Positions 41,695 through 55,451 of a DNA stretch of 64,000 nt are shown here, one piece after another. Made by a program: the position numbers and the translations under genes. Position 1 is the stretch's first letter; every line of letters begins with the position of its first letter. The DNA is taken from the NCBI GenBank assembly GCA_036444275.1, contig JAZGAD010000010.1, positions 5,068 through 69,067 of the forward strand, given 5' to 3'. Source of the stretch: Candidatus Hydrothermarchaeales archaeon (lineage in GTDB: Archaea > Hydrothermarchaeota > Hydrothermarchaeia > Hydrothermarchaeales > JAZGAD01). Below the pieces are notes generated by a model. The model ran no database searches. It saw only the letters and a list, made by a program, of their open reading frames with translations, and had not been told where the DNA came from.

Positions 41695-42712
41695 ATGGAT
41701 ACGGCTGGGAGGATAACCGTCAGCTTCCCATATAATCCTTCCTACATTACAAAGATAAAAAGCATAAAAGGTCACAGGTGGCATCCTGAAGAAAAATACT
41801 GGCGTGTGCCATACTCTGAGCTTGAAAACCTCTTATCTGTCTTTGATGGCGAGAAGGCTGATATCGACTCCGCTCTCTATTTCGAGCCCCTGAGAAAAGA
41901 GCTTGCATCGAGGAAGTACAGCCGGAGAACGATGAAGATGTATCTGCAGTACAATGAGGATTTCTTGAGGTTTGCAAGGAAAACTCCTTACAAGATTTCC
42001 AATAGCGACGTGAGGGATTATCTGTATCACTTGGCGGAGGAGAGGGATGCATCTGCCTCTACCCTGAATATTGCTATAAATGCGTTGAAGTTCTACTATG
42101 GTGAGATCTTAAAGCGGGGGTTTGCTTATGGGATTAAGAGGCCTAAGAAGGATAAGAAAATGCCCGTTGTATTAAGTCCGGAGGAAGTTTCCAAGATTTT
42201 ATCTTCACTTTCAAACATCAAGCATAAAGCCATTCTTATGCTTATGTATTCTGCTGGATTAAGAGTTGGTGAAGTTGTGAAGTTGAGGGTTGAGGATATA
42301 GATACTGGAAGAAAGTTAATTCATATCCGTGGTGGGAAAGGAAGGAAAGATCGCTATACTATACTTTCAGATGTTGCATTGGAGACCCTCAAAGTATATA
42401 TCAACGCCTGCAATCCAGAAAATTGGCTTTTTCCTGGGGGGAAAGGATAGAGGGCATGTTACCACAAGAACTGTGCAAAGGATATTTGAAGATGCCGTCA
42501 GAGAGGTCGGTGTTGGCAAAGACGTTAGCGTTCATTCTTTGAGACATAGCTTTGCAACACATCTATTAGAAAGCGGCGTAGATTTGAGGTATATTCAGGA
42601 ATTGTTAGGGCACAAAAGCAGTAAAACGACAGAGATATACACTCATGTGAGCAACAAGTCTTGGAGCAGAATAAAAAGCCCTCTGGATCTAATTCAAAGA
42701 GGTGGGACATGA
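41695..42712 (+). mobile_element. tyrosine recombinase/integrase (XerC/D superfamily) gene split by a +1 frameshift in a G/A homopolymer
   Basis: ORF 41695..42450 carries an N-terminal extension, the core-binding domain and the catalytic start ([24 protein letters not shown]). ORF 42329..42712 in the +1 frame carries [39 protein letters not shown] (R-H-R-Y catalytic residues). The frames switch at cctgggggg-aaagga (~42433-42447). Confidence 0.75.
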
Positions 42713-42857
42713 GGGAGTTTGGTAGCATCCGGGATGGGTATATGCGCAATGCAGATATAATTCTAAATAGGGATGATATACGCAATGCGTATATGAACGA
42801 GTTAGGCGAAATTTTTAAATCGCCTTTATAAGAACTTAAAAAAGGAATGTGAAATAG

Positions 42858-44258
42858 TTGAATATGAAAGCTTTAATACTTGCCGCTGGAGACGGTGGCA
42901 GATTGGGCAACTTAACTAAAAATAAACCCAAGCCCCTGATTAAACTTTTGGGATTAACTTTGATCGAAAGAGTAATATTAACTGCAAAACAAGCAGGCAT
43001 TAAAGAATTCGTGATAGTTTTTGGTTATCTGGGTGACAAAATAAAAGCAAAATTGGGAACTGGAGATAGGTATGGAGTAGAAATAAACTATATCGAAAAT
43101 AATGACTGCCAAAAAGAAAATGGGATCTCTGTATTAAAGGCCAAAGGATTGTTAAATGAAAACTTCATCCTGTTAATGTCAGACCATATCTTTGATAATC
43201 GTATTCTGAAAGAACTTATCGATTATGATACAAAAAGTTCAGTTGTTTTAGCTATTGATAGAAGAAAATCTCTACCAGGAGACACAAAGGTTCTGGAGAA
43301 GGAAGGAAGAATTGTTGATATCGGTAAAAATATAGAAGAATCAAACTGCATAGATACGGGTATCTTCTTGTGCTCACCAAAAATATTTTCTCATATTGAA
43401 GAAGCAGTAAAAGAAGGTAAAACTGAGCTTGCACATGATATTGCTAAAGCTGTTAAGAACAGAGATGCAGAAATATTCGACATCACGCAAATTAACAGCT
43501 ATATCCCGAGCATGCGGAAGGAGATTAAAGCTTTCTGGATAGATATTGATACAAAGGAGGATTTAATCAAAGCAAAAAAGCTTTTAATTGAGAATGCCTG
43601 TAAAGGACGAAATGACCTGCTTGCAACCTATGTGAATAAGCCAATAGAAAATTTTATTGTAAGCAGATTGGCGAACACGCAGATTACACCAAACCAGGTT
43701 ACTATACTAACAAACATAGTTGCTTATACATCCACATTTTTATTTCTCGAAGGATATCTATTGTTTGCTTCCATTCTCACCTTTATCGTTTCATTTATGG
43801 ACGGTGTGGACGGAAAACTTTCAAGAGTGAAAATAGCCTTTTCAAATATTGGGAAAATGGAGTACGCCTTCGATTTTCTTTATGAGCATTCATGGTATAT
43901 CGCCTTAGCCATCTATCTATCAAAGGACTATGGACTATCAGCGATTTTACTGTGCACATTCATACTCCTGTTTGATGGTTTTTCTCATTTTTGCAGACAG
44001 GCGTTTGGGAAGGCAATAAAGGACCGCCCATTAACAGATTATGGACGAATTGAACGGCTATTCAGAAAATTTGATGGTAGGAAGAACAGTTATATAATTT
44101 TTATCTTAATAGGTGTTTTGCTAAATGCACCTTTCTGGTCATTAGTTGCAATATCTGTATGGTCATTGGTCAGTGCTATATTTTATTCTTCAAGGGCGAT
44201 TTTGCATTTATATCGAGCCGATAAATCAACTCAGGGACCATATGGGAGCAAAAGATGA
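42858..44258 (+). CDS. bifunctional CTP:inositol-1-phosphate cytidylyltransferase / CDP-inositol:inositol-1-phosphate transferase (IPCT/DIPPS)
   Basis: N-terminal nucleotidyltransferase (MKALILAAGDGGRLGNLTKNKPKPL) fused to a C-terminal membrane CDP-alcohol phosphatidyltransferase domain (DGVDGKLSR ... multiple TM helices). This architecture makes di-myo-inositol phosphate in hyperthermophiles. Confidence 0.75.
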   Translation: MNMKALILAAGDGGRLGNLTKNKPKPLIKLLGLTLIERVILTAKQAGIKEFVIVFGYLGDKIKAKLGTGDRYGVEINYIENNDCQKENGISVLKAKGLLNENFILLMSDHIFDNRILKELIDYDTKSSVVLAIDRRKSLPGDTKVLEKEGRIVDIGKNIEESNCIDTGIFLCSPKIFSHIEEAVKEGKTELAHDIAKAVKNRDAEIFDITQINSYIPSMRKEIKAFWIDIDTKEDLIKAKKLLIENACKGRNDLLATYVNKPIENFIVSRLANTQITPNQVTILTNIVAYTSTFLFLEGYLLFASILTFIVSFMDGVDGKLSRVKIAFSNIGKMEYAFDFLYEHSWYIALAIYLSKDYGLSAILLCTFILLFDGFSHFCRQAFGKAIKDRPLTDYGRIERLFRKFDGRKNSYIIFILIGVLLNAPFWSLVAISVWSLVSAIFYSSRAILHLYRADKSTQGPYGSKR

Positions 44259-44335
44259 AGATAAGAATGATGTGGCTTGGGAAGGTCGTCAACGGACCTT
44301 CCATCCACCTGAAATTAGTAGGGAGGGCTTGAACA

Positions 44336-45460
44336 ATGAAGATCGCTTACGTATCAACCTATCTCCCCAAACAGTGTGGGATAGCCACCTACACGGATTA
44401 TCTCATTCACGGTCTCAGAGAGGTGGATCCGGCATTGGAGATTAAGATCATTGCCGAACAAGGAGCATCTCCTATCAAACAAGATAAACTTGAAGTGATC
44501 CCCTCCTGGGATAGAAACGAGGATTATGTAGAACCTATCATCTCACGCACAAAGGGTGCAGATGTAATCCACATTCAGCACGAATACGGCATATACAAAT
44601 TTGATGATAGATTACCATTATTACTCCAGGGATTGGACCCAGATGCCCGGAAGGTGATAACCATCCATTGCGTGAGACCAGCTCAGTTCTCCGAAAGAGA
44701 TGCTGTAGATGAGAATTTTGCAGCAAAAATCGCTCAACTTGCCGATCAGGTCATCGTACACCTTGAGTCGCAAAAAGCAATCCTGACACGACTTGGAATA
44801 CCATCAGGAAAGATTCACATTATTCCCCATGGAACAGTGCTTAGTGATGAGGATAAAGAGGCTTCACGGAAGAGGCTCGGACTGCCCAAGGACGCAAAGA
44901 TACTTCTCATGTTCGGGTTTGTCAAGAAACACAAGTGTTTACACATCGTTCTTGAGGCCCTCGTTGAGATATTGGAGAAATTCAAAGATATATATCTATT
45001 TGTGGCCGGAGGTCTTGCTCCAATAGCCTCACAGAAGGACAGGGACTATGCAGAATATGTGGGCAAGAGGATAGCGGAACTGGGGCTTCAGAAGAACGTC
45101 ATCTACCCAAACAGGTTCTTTCCCAACGAAGATGTGCCATATCTGTTGGGGGCATCTGACATTATCCTGTTTCCTTACTATGAGGAGGACCGCTCTGCCT
45201 CGGGCTCATTTCACCTGGCCATTGGTGCGAAAAAACCAGTTATTGCTTCGAGGATACCCAAGTTTGAAGAACTGAGAAATATCTGCGATGAACTTCTTGT
45301 CCTTCCGTATAACTCTTCGGGAATTGCAAAAGTAGTCATTCGTCTTTTTGAAGACTCAAAATTTCGGCAGTATGTAGTCAATCGCACCGAAGAATACAGA
45401 AATCTTACCTCCTGGCAAACCGTAGCGCACCAACACTTGAAATTGTATAAGGGAGTTTGA
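44336..45460 (+). CDS. glycosyltransferase family 4-like (GT-B)
   Basis: A GT4-like N-terminal domain (MKIAYVSTY...) and a C-terminal nucleotide-sugar-binding domain, 374 aa. Confidence 0.7.
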   Translation: MKIAYVSTYLPKQCGIATYTDYLIHGLREVDPALEIKIIAEQGASPIKQDKLEVIPSWDRNEDYVEPIISRTKGADVIHIQHEYGIYKFDDRLPLLLQGLDPDARKVITIHCVRPAQFSERDAVDENFAAKIAQLADQVIVHLESQKAILTRLGIPSGKIHIIPHGTVLSDEDKEASRKRLGLPKDAKILLMFGFVKKHKCLHIVLEALVEILEKFKDIYLFVAGGLAPIASQKDRDYAEYVGKRIAELGLQKNVIYPNRFFPNEDVPYLLGASDIILFPYYEEDRSASGSFHLAIGAKKPVIASRIPKFEELRNICDELLVLPYNSSGIAKVVIRLFEDSKFRQYVVNRTEEYRNLTSWQTVAHQHLKLYKGV

Positions 45461-45461
45461 G

Positions 45462-46502
45462 ATGAAGATAGGAATGATGACCGCTTGGAACCAAGATGTA
45501 GGACCTTCTATTCATGCCGAGCTGATCGGCAGAGAATGGGTGAAGATGGGTCATGAGCTTAGAATTTTTTCCTTCCTTAAGTCAGATTTTCATGGCACAG
45601 CCATTGTTGGTCAGGATGAGGAGTATGTGCTCCGATGTTTTACTACATCTACGGCAGAAAGACCATTTTTGGATGCTCGTCCCTTCGTAGAATTCCATCC
45701 CGATATTTTCATTACCCAAGATCTTGGGACGTTGCCAATGGATGCTCTCGCAAAGATTTTCCACCTTATAAAAAAAGAAGCAAAGACGATAACCGTGATC
45801 CACGATCGAATGCTTTCATCAAATCCATCTTTTTATCAATTTGAATGGGATGCGATTATTTGTAGCGATAAAAGGTACGTAGAATTTCTTAAAGAGGCTT
45901 ATCCAGAGGAAAAAATCTATGTAATACCCCATCCATACAATAAGTGGAGAGCCGGGGATAAGATTCGGGCAAGAAAGAAATTAGATCTGCCACTCGATAA
46001 GAAGATTATCCTGAACTTTGGTCAAAGAGTAAAGGATTTCAAAGAAACACTTCCTGCGATTTCCGAACTTCAGTCCAACTATCCGATTCTTGTTTTGGTA
46101 GTTACCAGAGAAGAAATAGAAGAACTCAGAAGAGAAACAACTTTACCAATTGAGATAAGGGAAGAGAGCCCATGTATAGAAAGGGTTTATGAGTATTTAC
46201 ACGCATCAGATGCCATGGTACTTCACCGTAAATCTATTGAGGGGATTGTCTATTCAAGCACCACTTATCAGTGCTTAGGATCAGGTTGTTCCGTCGTTGC
46301 GCTAAACTCAAACTTCTTCCAGCCATTTGGTGTGGAAGTCTTAAAATATGATGACTTAGCGGGCTTAAAGGAGTGCCTAATCGATATATTTAAAGAAGGA
46401 AAAAGATATAAAACAGCAAAATTATTAGCGGAAAGGGTGGTAAAAAGAAATACTCCACAAGAGATAGCAACTAAATTCATTAAACTTTTTGAATCGCTGT
46501 GA
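45462..46502 (+). CDS. GT-B fold glycosyltransferase-like protein (paralog 1 of 2)
   Basis: It starts 2 nt after the upstream GT4. It shares extended similarity with ORF 47259..48302 (MKIGMMTAWNQDVG.. vs MRIAMMSAWNTDSG..; EEYVLRCF vs EEYVVRCF). Confidence 0.5.
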   Translation: MKIGMMTAWNQDVGPSIHAELIGREWVKMGHELRIFSFLKSDFHGTAIVGQDEEYVLRCFTTSTAERPFLDARPFVEFHPDIFITQDLGTLPMDALAKIFHLIKKEAKTITVIHDRMLSSNPSFYQFEWDAIICSDKRYVEFLKEAYPEEKIYVIPHPYNKWRAGDKIRARKKLDLPLDKKIILNFGQRVKDFKETLPAISELQSNYPILVLVVTREEIEELRRETTLPIEIREESPCIERVYEYLHASDAMVLHRKSIEGIVYSSTTYQCLGSGCSVVALNSNFFQPFGVEVLKYDDLAGLKECLIDIFKEGKRYKTAKLLAERVVKRNTPQEIATKFIKLFESL

Positions 46503-46630
46503 TGGGTAAAATGAAATCTAAAACTTTTGTTGGTAGAGAGAATAAATTAAAGCTACTGGAACACTATTTTGAAGAAACCATCAAAAACAAAAAAAGGCAT
46601 TGTTATTTTGCTTACATGAGGAAATAGGTA

Positions 46631-46975
46631 TTGGCAAACAGACGCTTAACACCCTGGGGCAGCTGGCAGGTTCTTGCTGAAGGCCGAGAATATAAGGTAA
46701 AACTGATTAAAGTGAAGCCAGGGCACCGCTTTAGCCTCCAGTTGCATAATCGTAGAGATGAGCACTGGATGGTTGTTTCAGGTCAAGCAAGAGTAGAGAT
46801 TGGAGACAAAACAGTTAAAGCTAAACCCGGAAAATACATATTCATTCCTAAAAAGACGAAGCACCGGCTGCAAAATCCGGGAAAGAGTCGTCTCGTGGTA
46901 ATTGAGGTTCAAAGGGGTAAATATCTAGAAGAGGACGATATTGTTCGCCAAGAAGATAATTATGGAAGGTCATGA
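46631..46975 (+). CDS. cupin-domain protein (mannose-6-phosphate isomerase type II / ManC C-terminal-like)
   Basis: Cupin motifs G-x5-H-x-H (HNRRDEHW) ... KHRLQNPG in a 114 aa product. Confidence 0.6.
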   Translation: MANRRLTPWGSWQVLAEGREYKVKLIKVKPGHRFSLQLHNRRDEHWMVVSGQARVEIGDKTVKAKPGKYIFIPKKTKHRLQNPGKSRLVVIEVQRGKYLEEDDIVRQEDNYGRS

Positions 46976-47121
46976 AACTTAATTCAGAGATTTTTAGAGA
47001 GCACGATATAAGGGGAGTGGTTGATAAGGACTTGGATCCGGAGGTGGTGGAAGAAATTGGTAGGGCCTTTGGGGCTTATATTGGGAAGGGTAAGGTGGCG
47101 GTAGGACAGAGGGGATATTGA
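46972..47121 (+). pseudogene. phosphomannomutase/phosphoglucomutase N-terminal fragment (49 codons)
   Basis: MKLNSEIFREHDIRGVVDKDLDPEVVEEIGRAFGAYIGKGKVAVGQRGY* matches the N-terminus of PMM/PGM (IFRxYDIRG ... VxVGxD) but stops before the phosphoserine loop. The ATG overlaps the cupin stop (ATGA). Coordinates +/-2. Confidence 0.5.
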
Positions 47122-47258
47122 GATAATGAGCAAAGATTTAAAACTTAGCAACTAGAGTTAGAAGAGATTAATGATATCTTCATCGAAAGGCTTAAGAAGT
47201 ATCCTCAAATGGACATTAAGCCGTTTAGAGGATAATTATTTTGGAAGGAGGCTAGAGG

Positions 47259-48302
47259 ATGAGAATTGCTATGATGAGTGCTTGGAACACAGATAGTGGA
47301 GTAGCTGTACATGCAGAACCATTGGGCAAAGCCTGGATAAAGATGGGACATAAGTTAACTGTATTTACTTTCATCAAGGATGACTTCCATGGGGAGGGGT
47401 TTACCGGCGAAGATGAGGAGTATGTAGTCAGATGTTTTGGCACTCAAGAGCATACCAACTTCTTAGACCCCCGGCCTATCCTCACCACGGACTTTGATAT
47501 CTTCGTAGTTCAGGATTTAAGGATACTTCCAGTAGAAAAATTAGCCAAAGTATTTAGCCTGATTAAACAGCGGGCCATGACAATACATATAGTTCATGAA
47601 AATAAATTACCTGATGATGCCTGGTTTTATCAATTTGACTGGGACAAGGTAGTCTATTTTGATCAGAGGCAGGAATTCCTAAAAGAGATATACCCTGACG
47701 CTAAACTTATCCCTTTTCCTTGTTATGAACTAAGAAGGCGTGATAAGCTTGAGGCAAAAAAGAGGTTAGAGCTCCCCCTGGATAAGAAAATCATCTACTC
47801 TTTTGGCCAACGCGGCTATCATTCCTATCTTCGAAACTTACCTGATGAGATTAAAGATAAGGCAGTGCTTCTACATGTTGTCTCCAAAGAATACCAGATG
47901 CTTGAAGAGGAATCTCCTCCCGATTGGATGATTATTAGAAGAGAGGATGTTTTATCCCGCGAGAAATTTAATGACTATCTCTTTGCCTCGGATGCGGCTA
48001 TTTTTCATAAGTTCCAGAGCCGTTATCATGCCGTTGTTTCCTCTACGGTCTTTCAGGCATTAGGTTGTGGTTGCCCAATCTTAGTTCCCCGGCAATCGGA
48101 TTTCTTTCATCCTATGCAGAATGAGGTCATACGTTATGGAGATACTCCCGACTTAAATAGGAAGCTGCTTGAATTATTTGGAGATGAACAGACATCTCAA
48201 ACAGTCCAAGACGCAGCAGAAGGGTTTGTGTCAATGAATTCACCAGAAAAAATTGCCAAAAGGTATATCGGGCTATTTACTGAGGTCTTAAGAGCAAGAT
48301 AA
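47259..48302 (+). CDS. GT-B fold glycosyltransferase-like protein (paralog 2 of 2)
   Basis: Paralog of 45462..46502 with the same length and conserved blocks throughout. Confidence 0.5.
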   Translation: MRIAMMSAWNTDSGVAVHAEPLGKAWIKMGHKLTVFTFIKDDFHGEGFTGEDEEYVVRCFGTQEHTNFLDPRPILTTDFDIFVVQDLRILPVEKLAKVFSLIKQRAMTIHIVHENKLPDDAWFYQFDWDKVVYFDQRQEFLKEIYPDAKLIPFPCYELRRRDKLEAKKRLELPLDKKIIYSFGQRGYHSYLRNLPDEIKDKAVLLHVVSKEYQMLEEESPPDWMIIRREDVLSREKFNDYLFASDAAIFHKFQSRYHAVVSSTVFQALGCGCPILVPRQSDFFHPMQNEVIRYGDTPDLNRKLLELFGDEQTSQTVQDAAEGFVSMNSPEKIAKRYIGLFTEVLRAR

Positions 48303-48337
48303 GATGTGCAAGAAAAATTTTATCATCGAGCCATTTT

Positions 48338-48610
48338 GTGGATTATCCAAACAACCCAATTTTAGCTCCGGCAAAAGGTTTCACCTCACAAGGAATATAT
48401 AACCCTACAGTGATTAAAGAAGGAAAAAAATTCTTTATGCTATTCAGGGCTGAGGCAGAAGATGAGTTGACGGGAAGGATAGGGCTTGCTAAAAGTAGTG
48501 ATGGCATCCAATTTAGCTTGCACCCCGAACCAGTAATAGTGCCTTCTGCGGATTTCGATAAGTTCGGCTGTGAAGACCCCCGGGTGGTGAGATTTAAAGA
48601 TACTAAGTAA
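48338..48610 (+). pseudogene. GH130-family N-terminal fragment (90 aa)
   Basis: NPILAP...GIYNPTVIKEGKKFFMLFRAE...GRIGLAKSSDGIQFS...GCEDPRVV matches the first blade(s) of GH130 phosphorylases and then terminates. Confidence 0.45.
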
Positions 48611-48613
48611 AAT

Positions 48614-48864
48614 GTGGGAAGAATCAAGATTGCTATTATAGGAGTAGGCAACTGCGCCAGTTCTCTGGTGCAAGGTTTATGGTTCTATAAAGATTCATCA
48701 GAAGAAAAAGTTATCGGCTTAATGCACTACGATGTTGGTGGGTACAAGGTATGGGATTTGAGGTAGCGGCTGCCTTTGATATCGATAAGCGAAAGGTTGG
48801 CAAGCCCTTGAATGAGGCGATATTTGCCAGGCCGAACTGCAGGAGAATTTATAAAATTATTTAA
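48614..48864 (+). pseudogene. myo-inositol-1-phosphate synthase N-terminal fragment with a frameshift
   Basis: A GTG start gives [49 protein letters not shown]. Continuing in the -1 frame gives [25 protein letters not shown].... Both blocks match the Rossmann N-terminus of MIPS ([13 protein letters not shown] ... AAFDVD.KKVG ... AIFA). Coordinates +/-3. Confidence 0.55.
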
Positions 48865-48888
48865 CAAGTTGTTATAAGGGGTAATGTA

Positions 48889-50058
48889 ATGAACACTTTG
48901 GAAGAATTAGGAGATGGCAAGGTTATCGAAATCGAATCAGGAGCGACCATTTTTAAACTGGAGTCCGATGAAAAAAACCCTATTGTCAGACCCCAAGACC
49001 TCGGGCTCACCTGGAATGAGAATGGCGAATCGAAGATTGGGGCAGTTTTCAACGGTGGGGCTGAATTTTTCGAGAATAAGGTTATTCTTTTGCCAAGGTG
49101 TCATAGAGATTACCGAAAGGGCGAATTCTTTGACGAAAAGTTAGGCATTGAGAGGACCTGCCTGGAAAACTACATTTCCGAGGTTTGGCCTTTGGTGAGC
49201 GAGGATGGCGTCCACTTCACCAGATTCCATAACGTGGTAATCCGGGGCGATGGCACCGACCATCAGGACTTTACCTACGGAATAGAGGACATCCGAATCG
49301 TTAAGTACGGCCGGAGATACCTGCTGATCGGGTGTGGGAAGATAAAACCTCCGTTTAAAGGCGGCAATGCGGATCGAATTGCCATTTACACAACCAAAGA
49401 TTTTGTGAAGATTAACTATCAGGGCATAGTGGACTCCTTTGACTCGCGCAATGCGGTTCCCTTCTCCGAGCCGGTAAATGGACAACACTGGATACTCCTG
49501 CGTTTTCATACTAATATTCACATAGATTTTCTTGAAGCCGGCATAAATCAATTGCTGAATCCTTCCCAGCACACAGAACAGTGGGATGAAATCTATGAGC
49601 GACAGAGCCAGAATCTCCTTTTAGAAGCTGGGCACTACCCGCACGAAAAGCAGAAAATCGGCCCGGGCCCCCAGGTGCTCAGAACCGATAGGGGTTGGTT
49701 GCTCATCTACCATGCTGTTGGTGAGATAGAATATAATATCTGCAAAGCCTACGGGTTGACGGAAAAAATTGAAAGAGGATACTCCATCTGCGCTGCCCTT
49801 TTGGACTTAGACGATCCACGAAAGGTGCTTTGTCGAACCAGAAATCCAATCTATATTCCTTCAACCCCTTACGAATTATATGGTAACGATCAATATCCAG
49901 TGGATGTGTCTGCAGTCGTTTTTCCCATGGGTGCTATTGTTCGAAAAGAAAAACTGATTCTCTATGCCGGAGCTGGCGATAAATACATCATCCTTTTGAG
50001 CTGCGATCTTGATAACTTAGTTAATTATTTATGGGAGTATTGCAAGTACATTGCATAG
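48889..50058 (+). CDS. GH130-like glycoside phosphorylase/hydrolase family protein (5-bladed propeller)
   Basis: GIEDIRIV (GxEDPR-like) and YHAVG blocks. The family assignment is tentative. Confidence 0.45.
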   Translation: MNTLEELGDGKVIEIESGATIFKLESDEKNPIVRPQDLGLTWNENGESKIGAVFNGGAEFFENKVILLPRCHRDYRKGEFFDEKLGIERTCLENYISEVWPLVSEDGVHFTRFHNVVIRGDGTDHQDFTYGIEDIRIVKYGRRYLLIGCGKIKPPFKGGNADRIAIYTTKDFVKINYQGIVDSFDSRNAVPFSEPVNGQHWILLRFHTNIHIDFLEAGINQLLNPSQHTEQWDEIYERQSQNLLLEAGHYPHEKQKIGPGPQVLRTDRGWLLIYHAVGEIEYNICKAYGLTEKIERGYSICAALLDLDDPRKVLCRTRNPIYIPSTPYELYGNDQYPVDVSAVVFPMGAIVRKEKLILYAGAGDKYIILLSCDLDNLVNYLWEYCKYIA

Positions 50059-50200: not shown

Positions 50201-50521
50201 ATGGGTGACTGTATGAAAGGCAAAAACACTCTTACAGAAATAATGGACATCTTTAAAAAATATGAAAAGGAACTGAACAGAAGGTACGGGATCAAAAAGA
50301 TTGGGATATTTGGCTCGTACCTAAGAAGCGAAGCTGGAGAGGAGAGCGATCTAGATATACTTGTAGAATTTGAACAAGACGTAGATATAGGGCTTTTAAA
50401 ATTTGTAGAGATAGAGAACTATCTGAGTGACCTTCTTGGTGTTAAAGTGGATTTGGTGGAAAAATCTGCATTAAAACCGAGGATAGGACGGCGTATATTG
50501 AAAGAGGTTGTTTACGCATGA
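50201..50521 (+). CDS. MNT-type nucleotidyltransferase antitoxin
   Basis: [23 protein letters not shown]. Confidence 0.8.
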
Positions 50522-50862
50522 AGAGAGAGGTTGGAGACTATATTCAAGATGTCATCGACGCTACGAATAAAGGCATGAGATTTGTTGAGGGTGTGGAATA
50601 TGAAGATTTCATTCATGATGATAAAACCGTATTTGCTGTGATAAGAGCTATAGAGGTTATTGGTGAAGCAGTCAAAAATATACCTGAAGATGTAAAAATG
50701 GAGTATCCCGAAATTCCCTGGAGAGATATTGCCGGAATGAGAGATAAGCTTATTCATGCTTATTTTGGAGTTAGCATCAAAAGAGTATGGAAAGCTATAA
50801 AAGAAGAAATTCCTCCATTAAAACCTGTATTTGAAAAAATGCTTAAGGACTTAGAAAAATGA
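50518..50862 (+). CDS. HepT-like toxin (DUF86, HEPN)
   Basis: R-x4-H-x-Y motif RDKLIHAYF, with a 4-nt overlap with the upstream MNT gene. Confidence 0.8.
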
Positions 50863-53540: not shown

Positions 53541-54251
53541 ATGAGAAAGATACTCCCACTAGCTGTCATCCTTATCTTGATCCTAGCGGTCGGCTACTTT
53601 TACTTGTCTCAGAGACCGAGAGAAGAACTCGTAGGCTCCGAGGCAATAGGAGAAAACGCCCGAATTCTCACCATTAAGACCGAAGTCAAGGGCGTAGAGC
53701 ACACGAGGCATGACATAGAGTACACCAGAGAAGAACGGACTTTCAGGAACTATTTCGACTCCAAACTGAGGCCTGCATTGGCCTGGATAAAAGGAAACGC
53801 ACCTGAAGATGCTGTCTTCCTCTGTTGGTGGGACTATGGGCATATGATACGTGGCTATACCGAGAGAGACGCAGTGGTATATAGTCCTTCTAAGGGCATA
53901 ATGGAGACTGTATCCAGCGGCAAGTGGGACACCTCCGCTAGTGGAGACTTCTCTACAGAGGAAAGGATAAGAGAAGTAGCTCTAGCCCTAACAGCAAGAG
54001 ATCCAAAAGAAACTCTTGATATAATGAAAAAATACAGAGCTAACTATGTCTTTATAACCGCAGAGGATTCTGCGAAGAGCTTTGCCATCTTCTCTAGCTT
54101 GGGCTACGACCCCTCTGAGTATCTAGTGGATTGGAAGCCTACAGAGAAAGCCATGGAAACTATGCTCTTCAAGATGCTCGGGCACGAGCGGGTAGAGGGC
54201 TTGAACCTGCTGTATTCAGATGAATTCGTGAAAATCTATGGGCTAGAATGA
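53541..54251 (+). CDS. single-pass membrane protein with a WWDYG motif (oligosaccharyltransferase AglB/STT3 C-terminal-domain-like)
   Basis: An N-terminal TM anchor (ILPLAVILILILAVGYFYL) and then CWWDYGHMIRGYTERDAVV. Compare the OST signature as I recall it: PglB has WWDYGYPVRYYSD. There is no polytopic TM domain. Confidence 0.4.
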   Translation: MRKILPLAVILILILAVGYFYLSQRPREELVGSEAIGENARILTIKTEVKGVEHTRHDIEYTREERTFRNYFDSKLRPALAWIKGNAPEDAVFLCWWDYGHMIRGYTERDAVVYSPSKGIMETVSSGKWDTSASGDFSTEERIREVALALTARDPKETLDIMKKYRANYVFITAEDSAKSFAIFSSLGYDPSEYLVDWKPTEKAMETMLFKMLGHERVEGLNLLYSDEFVKIYGLE

Positions 54252-54653: not shown

Positions 54654-55451
54654 ATGCGGTTAGCATCGATTGTCATGATAGCCCTTCTCAGATACGAGAC
54701 AACGAAAAGGTGCATAGAGAGCATTTTTGAGAGAACCATGGCGCCCTTTGAGCTGATAGTCGTCGCTGTGGACTGTGAGAAGAAGATGAGAGAATTTTTT
54801 GAGGACCTTCAGAGGAAAAAGAAGAACCTAAAGGTCATCCATATAAAAAGCGGTCTGGGAACAACCGGCTCCAGAAATGTCGGCATACGAGCCTGTTCTG
54901 GGGATTATATAGTGTTTATGGACAACGATGCTCTTGTGAGCGAGGGATGGTTGGGAAAGTTGGAGAGGGTGGCTGAAAGCTCTCCGGATATCGGCCTTGT
55001 GGGCCCTAAAATCCTCAGGAAGAGCGGTGAGATTTATTATTGCAGCAAGTATATGAACGCGAAAGTGGAAGGGGGAAAAGTGGTGGAGATGGGCCTCAGC
55101 AAGACAGAAGTCTATAGCGGTGATGACCCCGAGGTCAACAGACAGGAGGAGGTGGTGTGGTATCCCACCACAACCCTGCTCGTAAAAAGGGAGGTGATAG
55201 AAAAAGTTGGGGGTTTTGATGAAGCATTTTTTCTTGTGGATGAGGACAAGGACCTCTGTCTGAGCGCGAGAGAAGCTGGCTACAAAACAATATATGCGCC
55301 ATATGCAGAAGTTGTTCACCTTCACGACTATCGTCTGGTGGATAGGCACAACACCTACCACAAGAACTTCAGGCTCAGGATGGACCTGATAGAAAAGGAC
55401 AACAAAAATTTTGAGAAGAAGTGGGGCCTGAGACTTGTTGACATATGGTAG
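54654..55451 (+). CDS. glycosyltransferase family 2
   Basis: GT-A Rossmann N-terminus (ASIVMIALLRYETTKRCIESI), DxD as FMDNDA, and C-terminal EDKDLCLSARE. Confidence 0.8.
   Translation: MRLASIVMIALLRYETTKRCIESIFERTMAPFELIVVAVDCEKKMREFFEDLQRKKKNLKVIHIKSGLGTTGSRNVGIRACSGDYIVFMDNDALVSEGWLGKLERVAESSPDIGLVGPKILRKSGEIYYCSKYMNAKVEGGKVVEMGLSKTEVYSGDDPEVNRQEEVVWYPTTTLLVKREVIEKVGGFDEAFFLVDEDKDLCLSAREAGYKTIYAPYAEVVHLHDYRLVDRHNTYHKNFRLRMDLIEKDNKNFEKKWGLRLVDIW

What the first reader, a model, noticed from the sequence alone, without database searches (positions are those of the whole stretch)
42858..50058. Decaying di-myo-inositol-phosphate/glycan locus with an intact IPCT/DIPPS, a frameshifted MIPS stub, PMM and GH130 stubs, and a tandem GT duplication
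IPCT/DIPPS at 42858..44258 appears intact. The enzyme that supplies its substrate, myo-inositol-1-phosphate synthase, survives only as a ~250-nt frameshifted N-terminal remnant at ~48614..48864. In the organisms I recall these two genes are usually adjacent. The same stretch holds a 49-codon phosphomannomutase N-terminal stub overlapping the cupin stop (~46972..47121) and a 90-aa GH130 stub at 48338..48610. It also holds two highly similar ~345-aa GT-B paralogs (45462..46502 and 47259..48302) that look like a recent segmental duplication. The pattern suggests recent rearrangement or erosion of a compatible-solute and sugar-nucleotide locus sitting between the broken integrase and the cassette-like array.
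Basis: partly seen in the sequence, partly recalled or inferred. Interest (0 to 1): 0.6.

Follow-up and report, generated by a model that had tools for sequence, protein, structure and literature searches.

The report
Patchwork inositol-phosphate sugar gene island
An archaeon has picked up a bacterial-type gene cluster for making sugar-decorated inositol phosphates, and the copy is a patchwork: six genes still look functional and five leftover gene fragments mark where pieces were deleted or swapped, which is ordinary genome wear in an unusually widely shared cluster.

Summary
The stubs are real. Window 48606-48852 is codons 1-80 of a myo-inositol-1-phosphate synthase, 87% nucleotide identical to an intact gene in bacterial locus L008, with one frameshift. 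48304-48610 is codons 1-100 of a 307-aa GH130. 46972-47109 is the first ~46 codons of a phosphomannomutase. I found a fifth remnant at 44255-44332, 25 codons of a glycosyltransferase. The "cupin" matches only the C-terminal domain of bifunctional ManC, so cupin plus PMM stub is a manC-3'/manB-5' fragment.

Three independent assemblies of a sister strain (97.9% identical) carry the same junctions. Their four indels all fall in stubs or spacer, none in intact genes. This is neither an assembly error nor functional coding.

The "recent tandem duplication" is wrong. GT-A and GT-B are 43% identical, each has a closer ortholog elsewhere, and intact relatives carry up to five such paralogs.

The locus is not decaying as a whole. 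The intact genes show dN/dS of 0.16-0.35.

The IPCT/DIPPS-like gene belongs to a clade 70-92% identical across many bacterial and archaeal phyla. Its dS is 0.16-0.22 against two other contigs, one of them (L004) bacterial. It keeps ~36% GC and a conserved ~75-nt leader.

The product, probably glycosylated inositol phosphodiesters, is inferred. Whether the host has another MIPS could not be tested.

The parts
41695..42712 (+). Frameshifted tyrosine recombinase (integrase) at the left edge of the low-GC island
   Evidence: ORF 41695-42450 matches PF00589 positions 2-99. The overlapping ORF 42329-42712, in another frame, matches positions 100-170.
42783..42863 (+). Conserved ~75-nt leader and promoter region that travels with the IPCT/DIPPS-like gene. 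It contains the GGCGA-N10-TCGCC hairpin and TTTATAAG.
   Evidence: DNA homology to L003, L065, L015, L006, L025, L037 and L064 begins 40-80 nt upstream of the start codon, although the upstream genes differ. No Rfam match.
42864..44258 (+). Intact bifunctional IPCT/DIPPS-like gene: NTP-transferase domain plus CDP-alcohol phosphotransferase domain
   Evidence: The motif is D313xxD316GxxSRx8Gx2E333x3D337, one residue shorter than the canonical motif, and is conserved in the family. dN/dS is 0.20-0.33. GC is 35.7%.
44255..44332 (+). Remnant: first 25 codons (MKIRMMWLGKVVNGPSIHLKLVGRA*) of the GT-A/B-family glycosyltransferase that follows IPCT in L003 and L065
Evidence: Nucleotide and protein alignment to L003 11403- and L065 10952-.
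44336..45460 (+). Intact GT4 glycosyltransferase (374 aa)
   Evidence: PF00534 E 1.6e-15 and PF13439. 66-67% nt identity to GT4 genes in the clusters of L028 and L089.
45462..46502 (+). GT-A: intact member of a small distinct GT-B-fold family
   Evidence: 55% aa identity to L008 b371, 48% to an L003 paralog, 43% to GT-B.
46499..46627 (+). 41-codon ORF of unknown origin at the left end of the inserted segment 46503-47245; probably non-coding
   Evidence: No family match. The sister strain has a 1-nt deletion at 46589.
46631..46975 (+). Cupin (114 aa), equivalent to the C-terminal mannose-6-phosphate isomerase domain of bifunctional ManC; retained as a standalone ORF
   Evidence: PF01050 E 6e-38 and TIGR01479 positions 358-467 of 467. 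In most of the 80 relatives (47-61% identical) the match is the C-terminus of a 460-520-codon ORF. 92% aa identity to L094, no indels, dN/dS 0.23.
46972..47121 (+). Remnant: first ~46 codons of a phosphomannomutase (manB); homology ends at 47109
   Evidence: The stub ends before residue 60 of ~460. L094 retains only 35 nt of it; window 47007-47245 is absent there.
47259..48302 (+). GT-B: intact second member of the GT-A/B family
   Evidence: 85% aa identity to L008 GTB347. The AlphaFold model (pLDDT 81, pTM 0.82) matches MshA, BshA and PimA. dN/dS is 0.17-0.35.
48304..48610 (+). Remnant: codons 1-100 of a 307-aa GH130. The original ATG is at 48304, an extra T at 48334 shifts the frame, and the stop TAA is created at the deletion junction.
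   Evidence: Window 48250-48603 aligns to L008 3963-4314 (84%) and L011 1089-1439 (89%). The sister strain lacks the extra T but has an extra A after 48423.
48606..48852 (+). Remnant: 8 nt of upstream sequence plus codons 1-80 of MIPS. The ribosome-binding site is lost, ATG has become GTG, and there is a 1-nt deletion near 48757.
   Evidence: Window 48606-48841 aligns to L008 6953-7189 (87%). The sister strain has a further 2-nt deletion at 48627-48628.
48889..50058 (+). Intact GH130 (389 aa) of the type that partners with IPCT in compact operons
   Evidence: PF04041 at 111 bits. 79% aa identity to L003. Nearest solved structures are beta-1,2-mannobiose and beta-1,2-oligomannan phosphorylases. 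D134, R187, N188, R205 and H275 align with the catalytic Asp and phosphate-binding residues.

Best explanation
The region is a horizontally acquired accessory gene island in an archaeal chromosome. NCBI labels the assembly Candidatus Hydrothermarchaeales. The island carries a mosaic, partly pruned copy of a gene cluster that is widespread in anoxic-sediment bacteria and archaea.

In its fuller forms the cluster combines:
- an IPCT/DIPPS-like enzyme;
- MIPS;
- one to five paralogs of a small GT-B-fold glycosyltransferase family;
- sometimes a GT4;
- one to three GH130 mannoside phosphorylases.

In this lineage, illegitimate deletions and replacements removed several pieces:
- most of the GT gene that originally followed IPCT;
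- about 2.6 kb running from codon 100 of a GH130 to just upstream of MIPS;
- MIPS beyond codon 80.
A manC-3'/manB-5' fragment was also inserted between GT-A and GT-B. The five 5'-terminal stubs are neutral scars and are still being whittled down.

The surviving genes are IPCT/DIPPS-like, GT4, GT-A, the cupin, GT-B and GH130-389. They are under purifying selection.

Inferred, not shown: these genes still make and recycle a glycosylated (probably mannosylated) inositol-phosphodiester. The proposed steps are as follows. The N-terminal domain activates inositol-1-phosphate with CTP to give CDP-inositol. The membrane domain transfers phospho-inositol to an alcohol acceptor. The GT-B enzymes add sugars from nucleotide sugars. 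The GH130 adds or removes beta-mannose through mannose-1-phosphate. Inositol-1-phosphate would have to come from a MIPS elsewhere in the genome.
For: Shown:
- Stub identities.
- Nucleotide-level breakpoints against intact L008 and L011.
- The same junctions appear in three independent assemblies at 97.9% identity. All 4 indel differences fall in 682 nt of stub or spacer and none in ~1650 nt of intact genes; the chance of that under uniformity is about 0.007.
- L094 has an even shorter PMM remnant.
- Intact architectures exist in L003, L008, L011, L028 and L065.
- dN/dS is 0.16-0.35 for the intact genes.
- The IPCT-like protein shows no excess of substitutions at conserved sites.
- Evidence for horizontal transfer: island GC is 40% against 47% in the flanks. 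The closest relatives of GT-B and of the stubs are on L008, a contig of an assembly labelled only 'bacterium' whose flanks include an aspartyl-tRNA synthetase with the GAD domain, which I take as bacterial. IPCT dS is 0.22 against L004, which I read as bacterial from its sigma-54 activators and signal peptidase II, and 0.16 against the unclassified contig L003. The gene stays at 33-40% GC in hosts of 34-55% GC. The recombinase is broken.

Functional inference:
- Collinear with solved A. fulgidus IPCT/DIPPS.
- MIPS is adjacent in 21 of 63 relatives.
- Compact IPCT-GT-GH130-MIPS operons occur in L021 and L028.
- The GT-B model is closest to MshA, an inositol-1-phosphate glycosyltransferase, and to PimA.
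- GH130-389 is closest to beta-1,2-mannoside phosphorylases and keeps the phosphate-binding residues.
Against: - No enzyme activity or metabolite data exist.
- The IPCT-like protein scores far below the NCBIfam equivalog cutoff (195 against 580).
- Its CDP-alcohol motif departs from the canonical motif: SR replaces AR, the loop is one residue shorter, and E replaces the third Asp.
- The window copy alone carries H334Y and F340Y inside that motif.
- No intact MIPS, PMM or ManC lies in the 64-kb window. I could not search the rest of the genome, so substrate supply is unproven.
- The order of the deletion and replacement events is inferred from a few relatives, not from a true ancestor.
Confidence: 0.7

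Rival explanations
1. The IPCT/DIPPS-like enzyme does not make the soluble solute DIP. Instead it transfers phospho-inositol from CDP-inositol to a lipid alcohol in a Kennedy-type inositol-lipid synthesis. The GT4-like enzymes then build a PIM-like glycolipid head group, and the GH130 trims it.
For: - The C-terminal domain is an integral-membrane CDP-alcohol phosphotransferase with a non-canonical motif.
- An analogous cluster of NTP-transferase, CDP-alcohol phosphatidyltransferase and MIPS has been proposed for inositol lipids in Bacteroides and Prevotella (bioRxiv 10.1101/2021.04.26.441525).
- The GT-B model also matches PimA and PimB'.
- The protein falls far short of the equivalog cutoff.
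Against: - The best solved relative over the full length is the DIP enzyme, which is itself membrane-bound.
- No lipid-synthesis genes are associated with the related loci examined.
- Sequence alone cannot decide the acceptor.
Confidence: 0.2
2. The whole locus is a dead relic, the stronger form of the first reader's 'decaying locus'. On this view the apparently intact genes are simply younger pseudogenes that have not yet been disrupted.
For: - Five remnants lie within 7 kb.
- The adjacent integrase is broken.
- MIPS, the substrate supplier, is lost.
- The related archaeal locus L021 also has split GT and MIPS genes.
- GT-B against the sister strain gives dN/dS of 0.35, the highest value seen.
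Against: - In the sister-strain comparison all indels fall in stubs and none in cupin or GT-B.
- dN/dS is well below 1 for every intact gene.
- IPCT has only the family-median number of deviations at conserved columns.
- The IPCT-like gene commonly occurs alone, without MIPS, in other genomes. Loss of the cluster's own MIPS therefore does not imply loss of function.
Confidence: 0.1
3. The truncations are artefacts: a chimeric assembly, collapsed repeats or sequencing errors.
For: The contig comes from a metagenome assembly. Two of the frameshifts lie in homopolymer runs (the T run at 48334 and the A run at 48423).
Against: - The same junctions and stubs appear in three independently assembled contigs from other runs (L012-L014) and partly in L094.
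- The junctions are clean, with a single breakpoint each, and the flanking homology to L008 and L011 is 84-89%.
- The paralogs are too diverged (43% aa) to cause a repeat collapse.
Confidence: 0.03

Closest known systems
Bifunctional IPCT/DIPPS of hyperthermophiles (Archaeoglobus fulgidus AF0263, PDB 4mnd/2xme; Thermococcales model NF041135)
   Same: - The two-domain architecture is the same and is collinear over ~440 residues.
- The nucleotidyltransferase G-loop LAAGDGGRLG is present.
- MIPS is frequently adjacent in relatives.
   Different: - Similarity is low: 121 bits to 4mnd and 195 bits against a cutoff of 580 for NF041135.
- The phosphotransferase motif is altered (SR for AR, one residue shorter, Glu for the third Asp).
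- The clade is 70-92% identical across many phyla of both domains, stays at ~36% GC, and often travels as a single gene.
Mannosyl-di-myo-inositol phosphate pathway of Thermotoga (DIP plus a beta-1,2-mannosyltransferase); recalled from my own knowledge, since the paper could not be retrieved
   Same: It links inositol-phosphodiester synthesis with mannosylation, and beta-1,2 linkages are the specificity of the nearest GH130 structures.
   Different: - Here the mannose-handling enzymes are GH130 phosphorylases plus retaining-type GT-B enzymes.
- Homology of GT-A/B to the Thermotoga enzyme could not be tested.
- No product is known.
[quoted passage not shown]
   Same: It is a CDP-inositol logic linked to MIPS.
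   Different: - Those genes are separate rather than fused.
- That cluster has a HAD hydrolase and no GH130 or GT-A/B genes.
- Its function is also unconfirmed.
GH130 beta-1,2-mannoside phosphorylases (Listeria Lin0857, PDB 5b0p; Thermoanaerobacter beta-1,2-mannobiose and oligomannan phosphorylases, PDB 7fip and 9fj8)
   Same: - They are the best solved relatives of GH130-389 (E 2e-18 to 3e-15).
- The catalytic Asp and the Arg/Asn/Arg/His phosphate site are retained.
- PMI and PMM genes fit the downstream use of mannose-1-phosphate.
   Different: - NCBIfam scores are only ~100 bits against cutoffs of 450-550.
- The enzyme is encoded next to inositol-phosphate genes, a pairing absent from the searchable literature.
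GT4 retaining glycosyltransferases MshA, BshA and PimA
   Same: The predicted GT-B fold of GT-B matches them best (Foldseek E 5e-12 to 4e-9, TM 0.69-0.71). MshA and PimA act on inositol-containing acceptors.
   Different: - Identity is 13-16%.
- There is no PDB hit by sequence, and Pfam scores are below cutoff.
- The family is small: 195 representatives at E<=1e-10 among 1.84 billion proteins.
manC-manB (GDP-mannose) operon
   Same: The cupin matches the ManC C-terminus and is followed, with an overlapping stop and start, by the manB 5' end, as in 16 of 80 related loci.
   Different: Only ~460 nt of the manC/manB junction survive: the ManC nucleotidyltransferase domain is absent, and manB is cut after ~46 codons.

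Membership tests
Bifunctional IPCT/DIPPS | N-terminal sugar-phosphate nucleotidyltransferase domain homologous to IPCT | tested here: met
   PF00483 at 62 bits (cutoff 21.2). PDB 2xme E 4e-23. G-loop LAAGDGGRLG at residues 6-15.
Bifunctional IPCT/DIPPS | C-terminal CDP-alcohol phosphotransferase domain with the motif DxxDGxxAR...GxxxDxxxD | tested here: inconclusive
   PF01066 at 24.8 bits (cutoff 22). The motif here is DxxDGxxSRx8GxxExxxD. HMMER aligns E333 and D337 with the third and fourth Asp through a 1-residue gap. The variant is invariant in the family.
Bifunctional IPCT/DIPPS | Reaches the curated equivalog score | tested here: not met
   NF041135: 194.9 bits against a cutoff of 580. 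That model is specific to Thermococcales.
Bifunctional IPCT/DIPPS | Genomic linkage to MIPS | tested here: met
   MIPS lies directly upstream in 21 of 63 related loci with readable upstream sequence, and inside the operon in L021 and L028. In the window only a remnant survives.
Bifunctional IPCT/DIPPS | Forms CDP-inositol and DIP-phosphate from CTP and inositol-1-phosphate | not testable with these tools
   This needs an enzyme assay or NMR.
myo-Inositol-1-phosphate synthase (the remnant) | Full-length ~360-aa protein with the catalytic Inos-1-P_synth domain | tested here: not met
   Only codons 1-80 of 364 survive, with a frameshift. There is no PF01658 region.
Phosphomannomutase/phosphoglucomutase (the remnant) | Four-domain ~460-aa protein | tested here: not met
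   Homology covers residues 1-51 of 456-473 and only PF02878 positions 2-47 of 138. From general knowledge of the family, the catalytic phosphoserine loop lies further downstream in domain I; I did not test this here.
GH130 mannoside phosphorylase (389-aa gene) | GH130 domain above the curated score, with the catalytic Asp and the phosphate-binding Arg/Asn/Arg/His | tested here: met
   PF04041 at 111 bits (cutoff 26). D134, R187, N188, R205 and H275 align with UhgbMP chain residues R170, N171, R188 and H251, which are R150, N151, R168 and H231 after allowing for the 20-residue tag. The roles of these residues are from my own knowledge.
GH130 (the 90-aa stub) | Complete five-bladed propeller domain | tested here: not met
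   Only codons 1-100 of 307 survive, with a frameshift after codon 10.
GT-B-fold (GT4-like) glycosyltransferase, for GT-A and GT-B | Two-Rossmann GT-B fold; Pfam GT4/GT1 score | tested here: inconclusive
   The fold criterion is met: pLDDT 81, and Foldseek gives probability 1.0 for MshA, BshA and PimA. The Pfam score is below cutoff: 27.1 against 28.5 for GT-A and 15.8-19.1 for GT-B.
Recent segmental (tandem) duplication | High nucleotide identity between the copies, which are each other's closest relatives | tested here: not met
   43% aa identity, with shared DNA patches of only 20-27 nt. GT-B is 85% identical to an L008 gene and GT-A is 55% identical to a different L008 gene.

The most novel reading that the evidence does not exclude
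The eroded locus is one snapshot of an undescribed, highly mobile pathway. A single IPCT/DIPPS-like 'plug-in' gene, carrying its own ~75-nt promoter and leader and a fixed ~36% GC, has recently spread across many bacterial and archaeal phyla in anoxic and hydrothermal sediments. It repeatedly gathers variable sets of a private GT-B family and GH130 phosphorylases. These would build a new class of beta-mannosylated inositol-phosphodiester solutes or head groups, with a phosphorylase working in the synthetic direction.
Probability: 0.3. Interest if true: 0.65.

Novelty: new variant of a known kind. Interest (0 to 1): 0.4.

Why it matters
The stubs themselves are ordinary scars of deletion in an accessory island. 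They matter mainly as a worked example in which breakpoints, an intact donor-like architecture and ongoing neutral decay can all be shown from sequence.

The more useful result concerns the cluster behind them. It pairs an IPCT/DIPPS-like enzyme with GH130 phosphorylases and a small uncharacterised glycosyltransferase family. I found no paper in the searchable library that mentions both di-myo-inositol and GH130. The IPCT-like gene has synonymous divergence of only ~0.2 between bacterial and archaeal hosts.

If the product is a glycosylated inositol phosphate, this would extend DIP-type stress solutes, or inositol head groups, well beyond cultured hyperthermophiles. It would also give a clear case of recent inter-domain transfer of a stress-protection trait.

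Tried and rejected
- Recent tandem duplication of the GTs: rejected (43% aa identity, different orthogroups).
- Assembly artefact: rejected, because the junctions recur in L012-L014 and L094.
- GH130 stub as a copy or half of the downstream 389-aa GH130: rejected. The two show no similarity, and the stub belongs to the 307-aa type.
- Carriage on known plasmids, phages or IMG/VR viral contigs: no relative above 32% identity and none in viral contigs.
- Island attachment sites: no convincing flanking direct repeats and no adjacent tRNA.
- A known RNA element in the conserved leader or elsewhere in 41-51 kb: none in Rfam.
- Relaxed selection on the IPCT-like gene: not seen.
- Identity of the 41-codon ORF at 46499-46627 and of the spacer at 47122-47245: unresolved. 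Neither has a family or locus match outside this lineage.
- The Thermotoga MDIP synthase paper and sequence could not be retrieved, so homology of GT-A/B to that enzyme stays untested.
- Searching the rest of the source genome for ino1 or manB was not possible with the available tools. Within the window there is none.

Full report
SOURCE AND SETTING

The window is the reverse complement of part of contig JAZHCD010646926.1 (104,886 bp) of assembly GCA_044240385.1. NCBI labels its proteins "Candidatus Hydrothermarchaeales archaeon". The genes flanking the region are typical archaeal housekeeping genes, including NAC, LonB, NMD3 and PRPP synthase.

The stretch 41.7-54.3 kb has 40.1% GC against 47.3-47.7% on either side. 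It begins with a tyrosine recombinase split by a frameshift: PF00589 positions 2-99 lie in one ORF and positions 100-170 in the next.

WHAT IS ENCODED (all on the + strand)

- 42864-44258: IPCT/DIPPS-like, 464 aa.
- 44336-45460: GT4, 374 aa.
- 45462-46502: GT-A, 346 aa.
- 46499-46627: an unassignable 41-codon ORF.
- 46631-46975: cupin, 114 aa.
- 46972-47121: PMM stub.
- 47259-48302: GT-B, 347 aa.
- 48338-48610: GH130 stub.
- 48614-48852: MIPS stub.
- 48889-50058: GH130, 389 aa.

CHECKING THE STUBS

- PMM: PF02878 positions 2-47, 28.4 bits against a cutoff of 22.5, E 1.5e-6.
- GH130: PF04041 positions 33-110 of 320, E 1e-17.
- MIPS: TIGR03450 positions 1-47, E 6e-13.

Related loci made it possible to go further.

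Locus L008 comes from an assembly labelled only "bacterium" (GCA_030017475.1). I take it as bacterial because its flanks include an aspartyl-tRNA synthetase with the GAD domain. It carries, in order and all intact: a 384-aa protein, a DSPc phosphatase, a GT-A-like gene (371 aa), GT-B (347 aa, 85% aa identical to the window's), GH130 (307 aa), GH130 (293 aa), a GT (346 aa) and MIPS (364 aa). L011 shows the same GT-B, GH130-307, GH130-293, GT order.

At the nucleotide level:
- Window 48250-48603 aligns to L008 3963-4314 (84%) and to L011 (89%).
- Window 48606-48841 aligns to L008 6953-7189 (87%).

Relative to an L008-like arrangement, about 2.6 kb is therefore missing: the rest of GH130-307, all of GH130-293 and the 346-aa GT. 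The junction reads GATAC|TA|AGTAA. It creates the stub's stop codon and removes the MIPS ribosome-binding site.

The remnants carry further lesions.
- The GH130 stub's original ATG is at 48304 and is put out of frame by an extra T at 48334.
- The MIPS start has changed from ATG to GTG.
- A 1-nt deletion near 48757 shifts the MIPS frame.
- MIPS homology stops at codon ~80 of 364.

A FIFTH REMNANT, AND THE NATURE OF THE CUPIN

DNA homology between the window and L003 or L065 runs past the IPCT stop codon to 44331. The sequence 44255-44332 translates to MKIRMMWLGKVVNGPSIHLKLVGRA*. This is the first 25 codons of the GT-A/B-family gene that follows IPCT in those loci (MKIGMMCLWNAANGPSIHAELVGRAW...). 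GT4 starts four bases later.

The 114-aa cupin matches TIGR01479 positions 358-467 of 467. Among 80 metagenomic relatives, most of those at 47-61% identity carry the match at the C-terminus of a 460-520-codon ORF, which is bifunctional ManC. In 16 of them a PMM gene starts just downstream. No ManC homology exists upstream of 46652 and no PMM homology downstream of 47109.

The segment 46503-47245 is absent from L008, where the GT-A-like and GT-B genes overlap. It is therefore an inserted manC-3'/manB-5' fragment.

The cupin part has nonetheless been kept as an ORF. It is 92% aa identical in L094, has no indels, and has dN/dS of 0.23. Standalone 133-158-codon versions exist elsewhere, in L095 and L147.

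NOT AN ARTEFACT, AND NOT CODING

Three contigs assembled independently from other sequencing runs (L012-L014) are 97.8-97.9% identical to window 46406-49050 and contain the same junctions.

Their differences from the window include four indel events:
- a 1-nt deletion in the 41-codon ORF (46589);
- absence of the extra T at 48334;
- an extra A after 48423 in the GH130 stub;
- a 2-nt deletion at 48627-48628 in the MIPS stub.

None lies in the cupin, GT-B, or the sampled ends of GT-A and GH130-389. If indels were uniformly distributed, the chance that all four fall in the 682 nt of stub and spacer, out of about 2,330 aligned nt, is about 0.007 (my calculation).

L094, a more distant relative (cupin 94% nt identical, GT-B 89% nt identical), retains only 35 nt of the PMM stub. 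Window 47007-47245 is deleted there, with the right edge again just upstream of GT-B. The remnants are thus neutral DNA that is still being trimmed, bounded by genes that selection keeps.

THE 'TANDEM DUPLICATION'

GT-A and GT-B share 43% aa identity and only two short DNA patches of 27 and 20 nt. GT-B's closest relatives are 85% (L008) and 61% (L003) identical. GT-A's are 55% (L008 b371) and 48% (L003). L003 has five paralogs in a row. Multiple old paralogs are therefore a standing feature of the cluster, not a recent event.

The family is distinct and small.
- It has no PDB hit by sequence.
- Pfam scores are below cutoff.
- It has 195 representatives at E<=1e-10 among 1.84 billion proteins.

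An AlphaFold model of GT-B (pLDDT 81, pTM 0.82) has a GT-B fold. The fold is closest to MshA, BshA and PimA.

THE LOCUS AS A WHOLE IS NOT DECAYING

dN/dS values:
- IPCT: 0.20-0.33.
- GT-B: 0.17-0.35.
- Cupin: 0.23-0.28.
- GH130-389: 0.16.

The IPCT-like protein departs from the consensus at 2 of 177 columns that are >=95% conserved among 120 homologs, and the family median is 2. Both changes (H334Y and F340Y) lie in the phosphotransferase motif.

THE CLUSTER FAMILY AND ITS SPREAD

The IPCT-like protein has more than 1,000 homologs. The best 120 are 69-92% identical and carry labels from many phyla. A scan of species-representative genomes found it at 72-88% identity in MAGs labelled KSB1, Anaerolineae, Ignavibacteria, Zixibacteria, Desulfobacteraceae, Bipolaricaulota, Cloacimonadota, Saccharibacteria, Altiarchaeales, Methanosarcinales and ANME-1.

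- Synonymous divergence from the window copy is 0.22 to L004, which I read as bacterial from its sigma-54 activators and signal peptidase II. It is 0.16 to L003, whose host I did not classify.
- The gene stays at 33-40% GC while its flanks range from 34 to 55%.
- About 40-80 nt of upstream sequence moves with it. That leader contains a GGCGA-N10-TCGCC hairpin followed by TTTATAAG.

No close relative is on known plasmids, phages or IMG/VR contigs.

Context varies.
- MIPS lies directly upstream in 21 of 63 loci with readable upstream sequence.
- GT or GH130 genes lie downstream in 7 of 59.
- Many loci have the gene alone.
- Intact archaeal versions exist. L028 (ANME-1) reads: Lrp regulator, IPCT, GT, GH130-390, MIPS, a methyltransferase/ATP-grasp fusion, GT4, GT, GH130-294.
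- L021 (Methanosarcinales) has the compact operon, but its GT and MIPS are split.

FUNCTION (INFERRED)

The protein is collinear with A. fulgidus IPCT/DIPPS (4mnd, E 5e-34) and has the nucleotidyltransferase G-loop. Its phosphotransferase motif is DxxDGxxSRx8GxxExxxD, and this variant is invariant in the family. Linkage to MIPS supports inositol-1-phosphate as the substrate. The acceptor (a second inositol-1-phosphate giving DIP, or another alcohol or lipid) cannot be read from sequence.

GH130-389 is closest to beta-1,2-mannobiose and beta-1,2-oligomannan phosphorylases. It keeps D134, R187, N188, R205 and H275, which align with the catalytic Asp and phosphate-binding residues of UhgbMP. The roles of those residues are from my own knowledge.

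Together with MshA/PimA-like GTs and the PMI/PMM fragment, the most economical reading is a pathway that makes and recycles a mannosylated inositol-phosphodiester. The known parallel is mannosyl-DIP of Thermotoga (my own knowledge; the paper could not be retrieved). A glycolipid head-group pathway, as proposed for Bacteroides and Prevotella, is the main rival.

No paper in the searchable library mentions both di-myo-inositol and GH130.

VERDICT

The duplication claim is wrong, 'decaying locus' overstates the case, and the DIP assignment is unproven.

The stubs are ordinary. The cluster family and its recent inter-domain spread are the moderately interesting part.

Noticed in passing
window 42783-42863; also L003, L065, L015, L006, L025, L037, L064 upstream of the IPCT-like gene: A conserved ~75-nt leader travels with the IPCT-like gene into unrelated bacterial and archaeal contexts. 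It contains the hairpin GGCGAAATTTTTGAATCGCC followed by TTTATAAG and a purine-rich ribosome-binding site. It may be a portable promoter or operator. Rfam has no match.
   Followed up: partly
L015-L034 and others: The IPCT-like gene keeps 33-40% GC whatever the flanking GC (34-55%). Together with dS of ~0.2 between the window's archaeal copy and the copy on bacterial contig L004, this points to very recent, repeated inter-phylum and inter-domain transfer. No vehicle was identified.
   Followed up: partly
L021 10121-11208 and 12386-13520: In a Methanosarcinales MAG the compact IPCT-GT-GH130-MIPS operon has a split GT and a split MIPS (266 + 98 aa), while IPCT and GH130 are intact. This would be a second archaeal case of MIPS loss, unless these are MAG sequencing errors.
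   Followed up: no
L028 9531-9998 and 15013-17103; L021 8212-8721 and 14461-16367: In the archaeal operons an Lrp/AsnC regulator overlaps the IPCT start codon. ATP-grasp (D-Ala-D-Ala-ligase-like), methyltransferase and GNAT/AdoMet-decarboxylase genes follow the operon. This may be a wider solute-synthesis neighbourhood.
   Followed up: no
L008 277-1847; L009 8365-9988: Bacterial versions of the cluster include a small dual-specificity (DSPc / PTP-like phytase) phosphatase and a 384-440-aa protein with at best a weak sub-threshold Pfam match (none for the L008 copy; Glyco_trans_1_2 at 18.6 bits, cutoff 25, for the L009 copy). The phosphatase is a candidate for the dephosphorylation step of an inositol-phosphodiester pathway. 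Both are absent from the window.
   Followed up: no
L074 1434-2192 and L087 8465-8731: Homologs of the window's tyrosine recombinase lie next to MIPS-IPCT pairs in two other loci (a Cloacimonadota MAG and an unclassified bacterium). This hints at a recurrent link between this integrase type and the genes.
   Followed up: no
window 50201-50862: A MNT (nucleotidyltransferase) / HepT (HEPN RNase) toxin-antitoxin pair lies immediately downstream of the cluster, inside the low-GC island.
   Followed up: partly
window 53541-54251 and 54654-55451: A 236-aa ORF has weak matches to the AglB/STT3 core domain, far shorter than a full oligosaccharyltransferase, so it may be another gene fragment. An intact GT2 follows it at the right edge of the island.
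   Followed up: no
window 46499-46627 and 47122-47245: Two pieces of the inserted segment have no detectable relatives outside this lineage: a 41-codon ORF overlapping the GT-A stop, and a 124-nt spacer after the PMM stub. The ORF is frameshifted in the sister strain, and the spacer is deleted in L094.
   Followed up: partly
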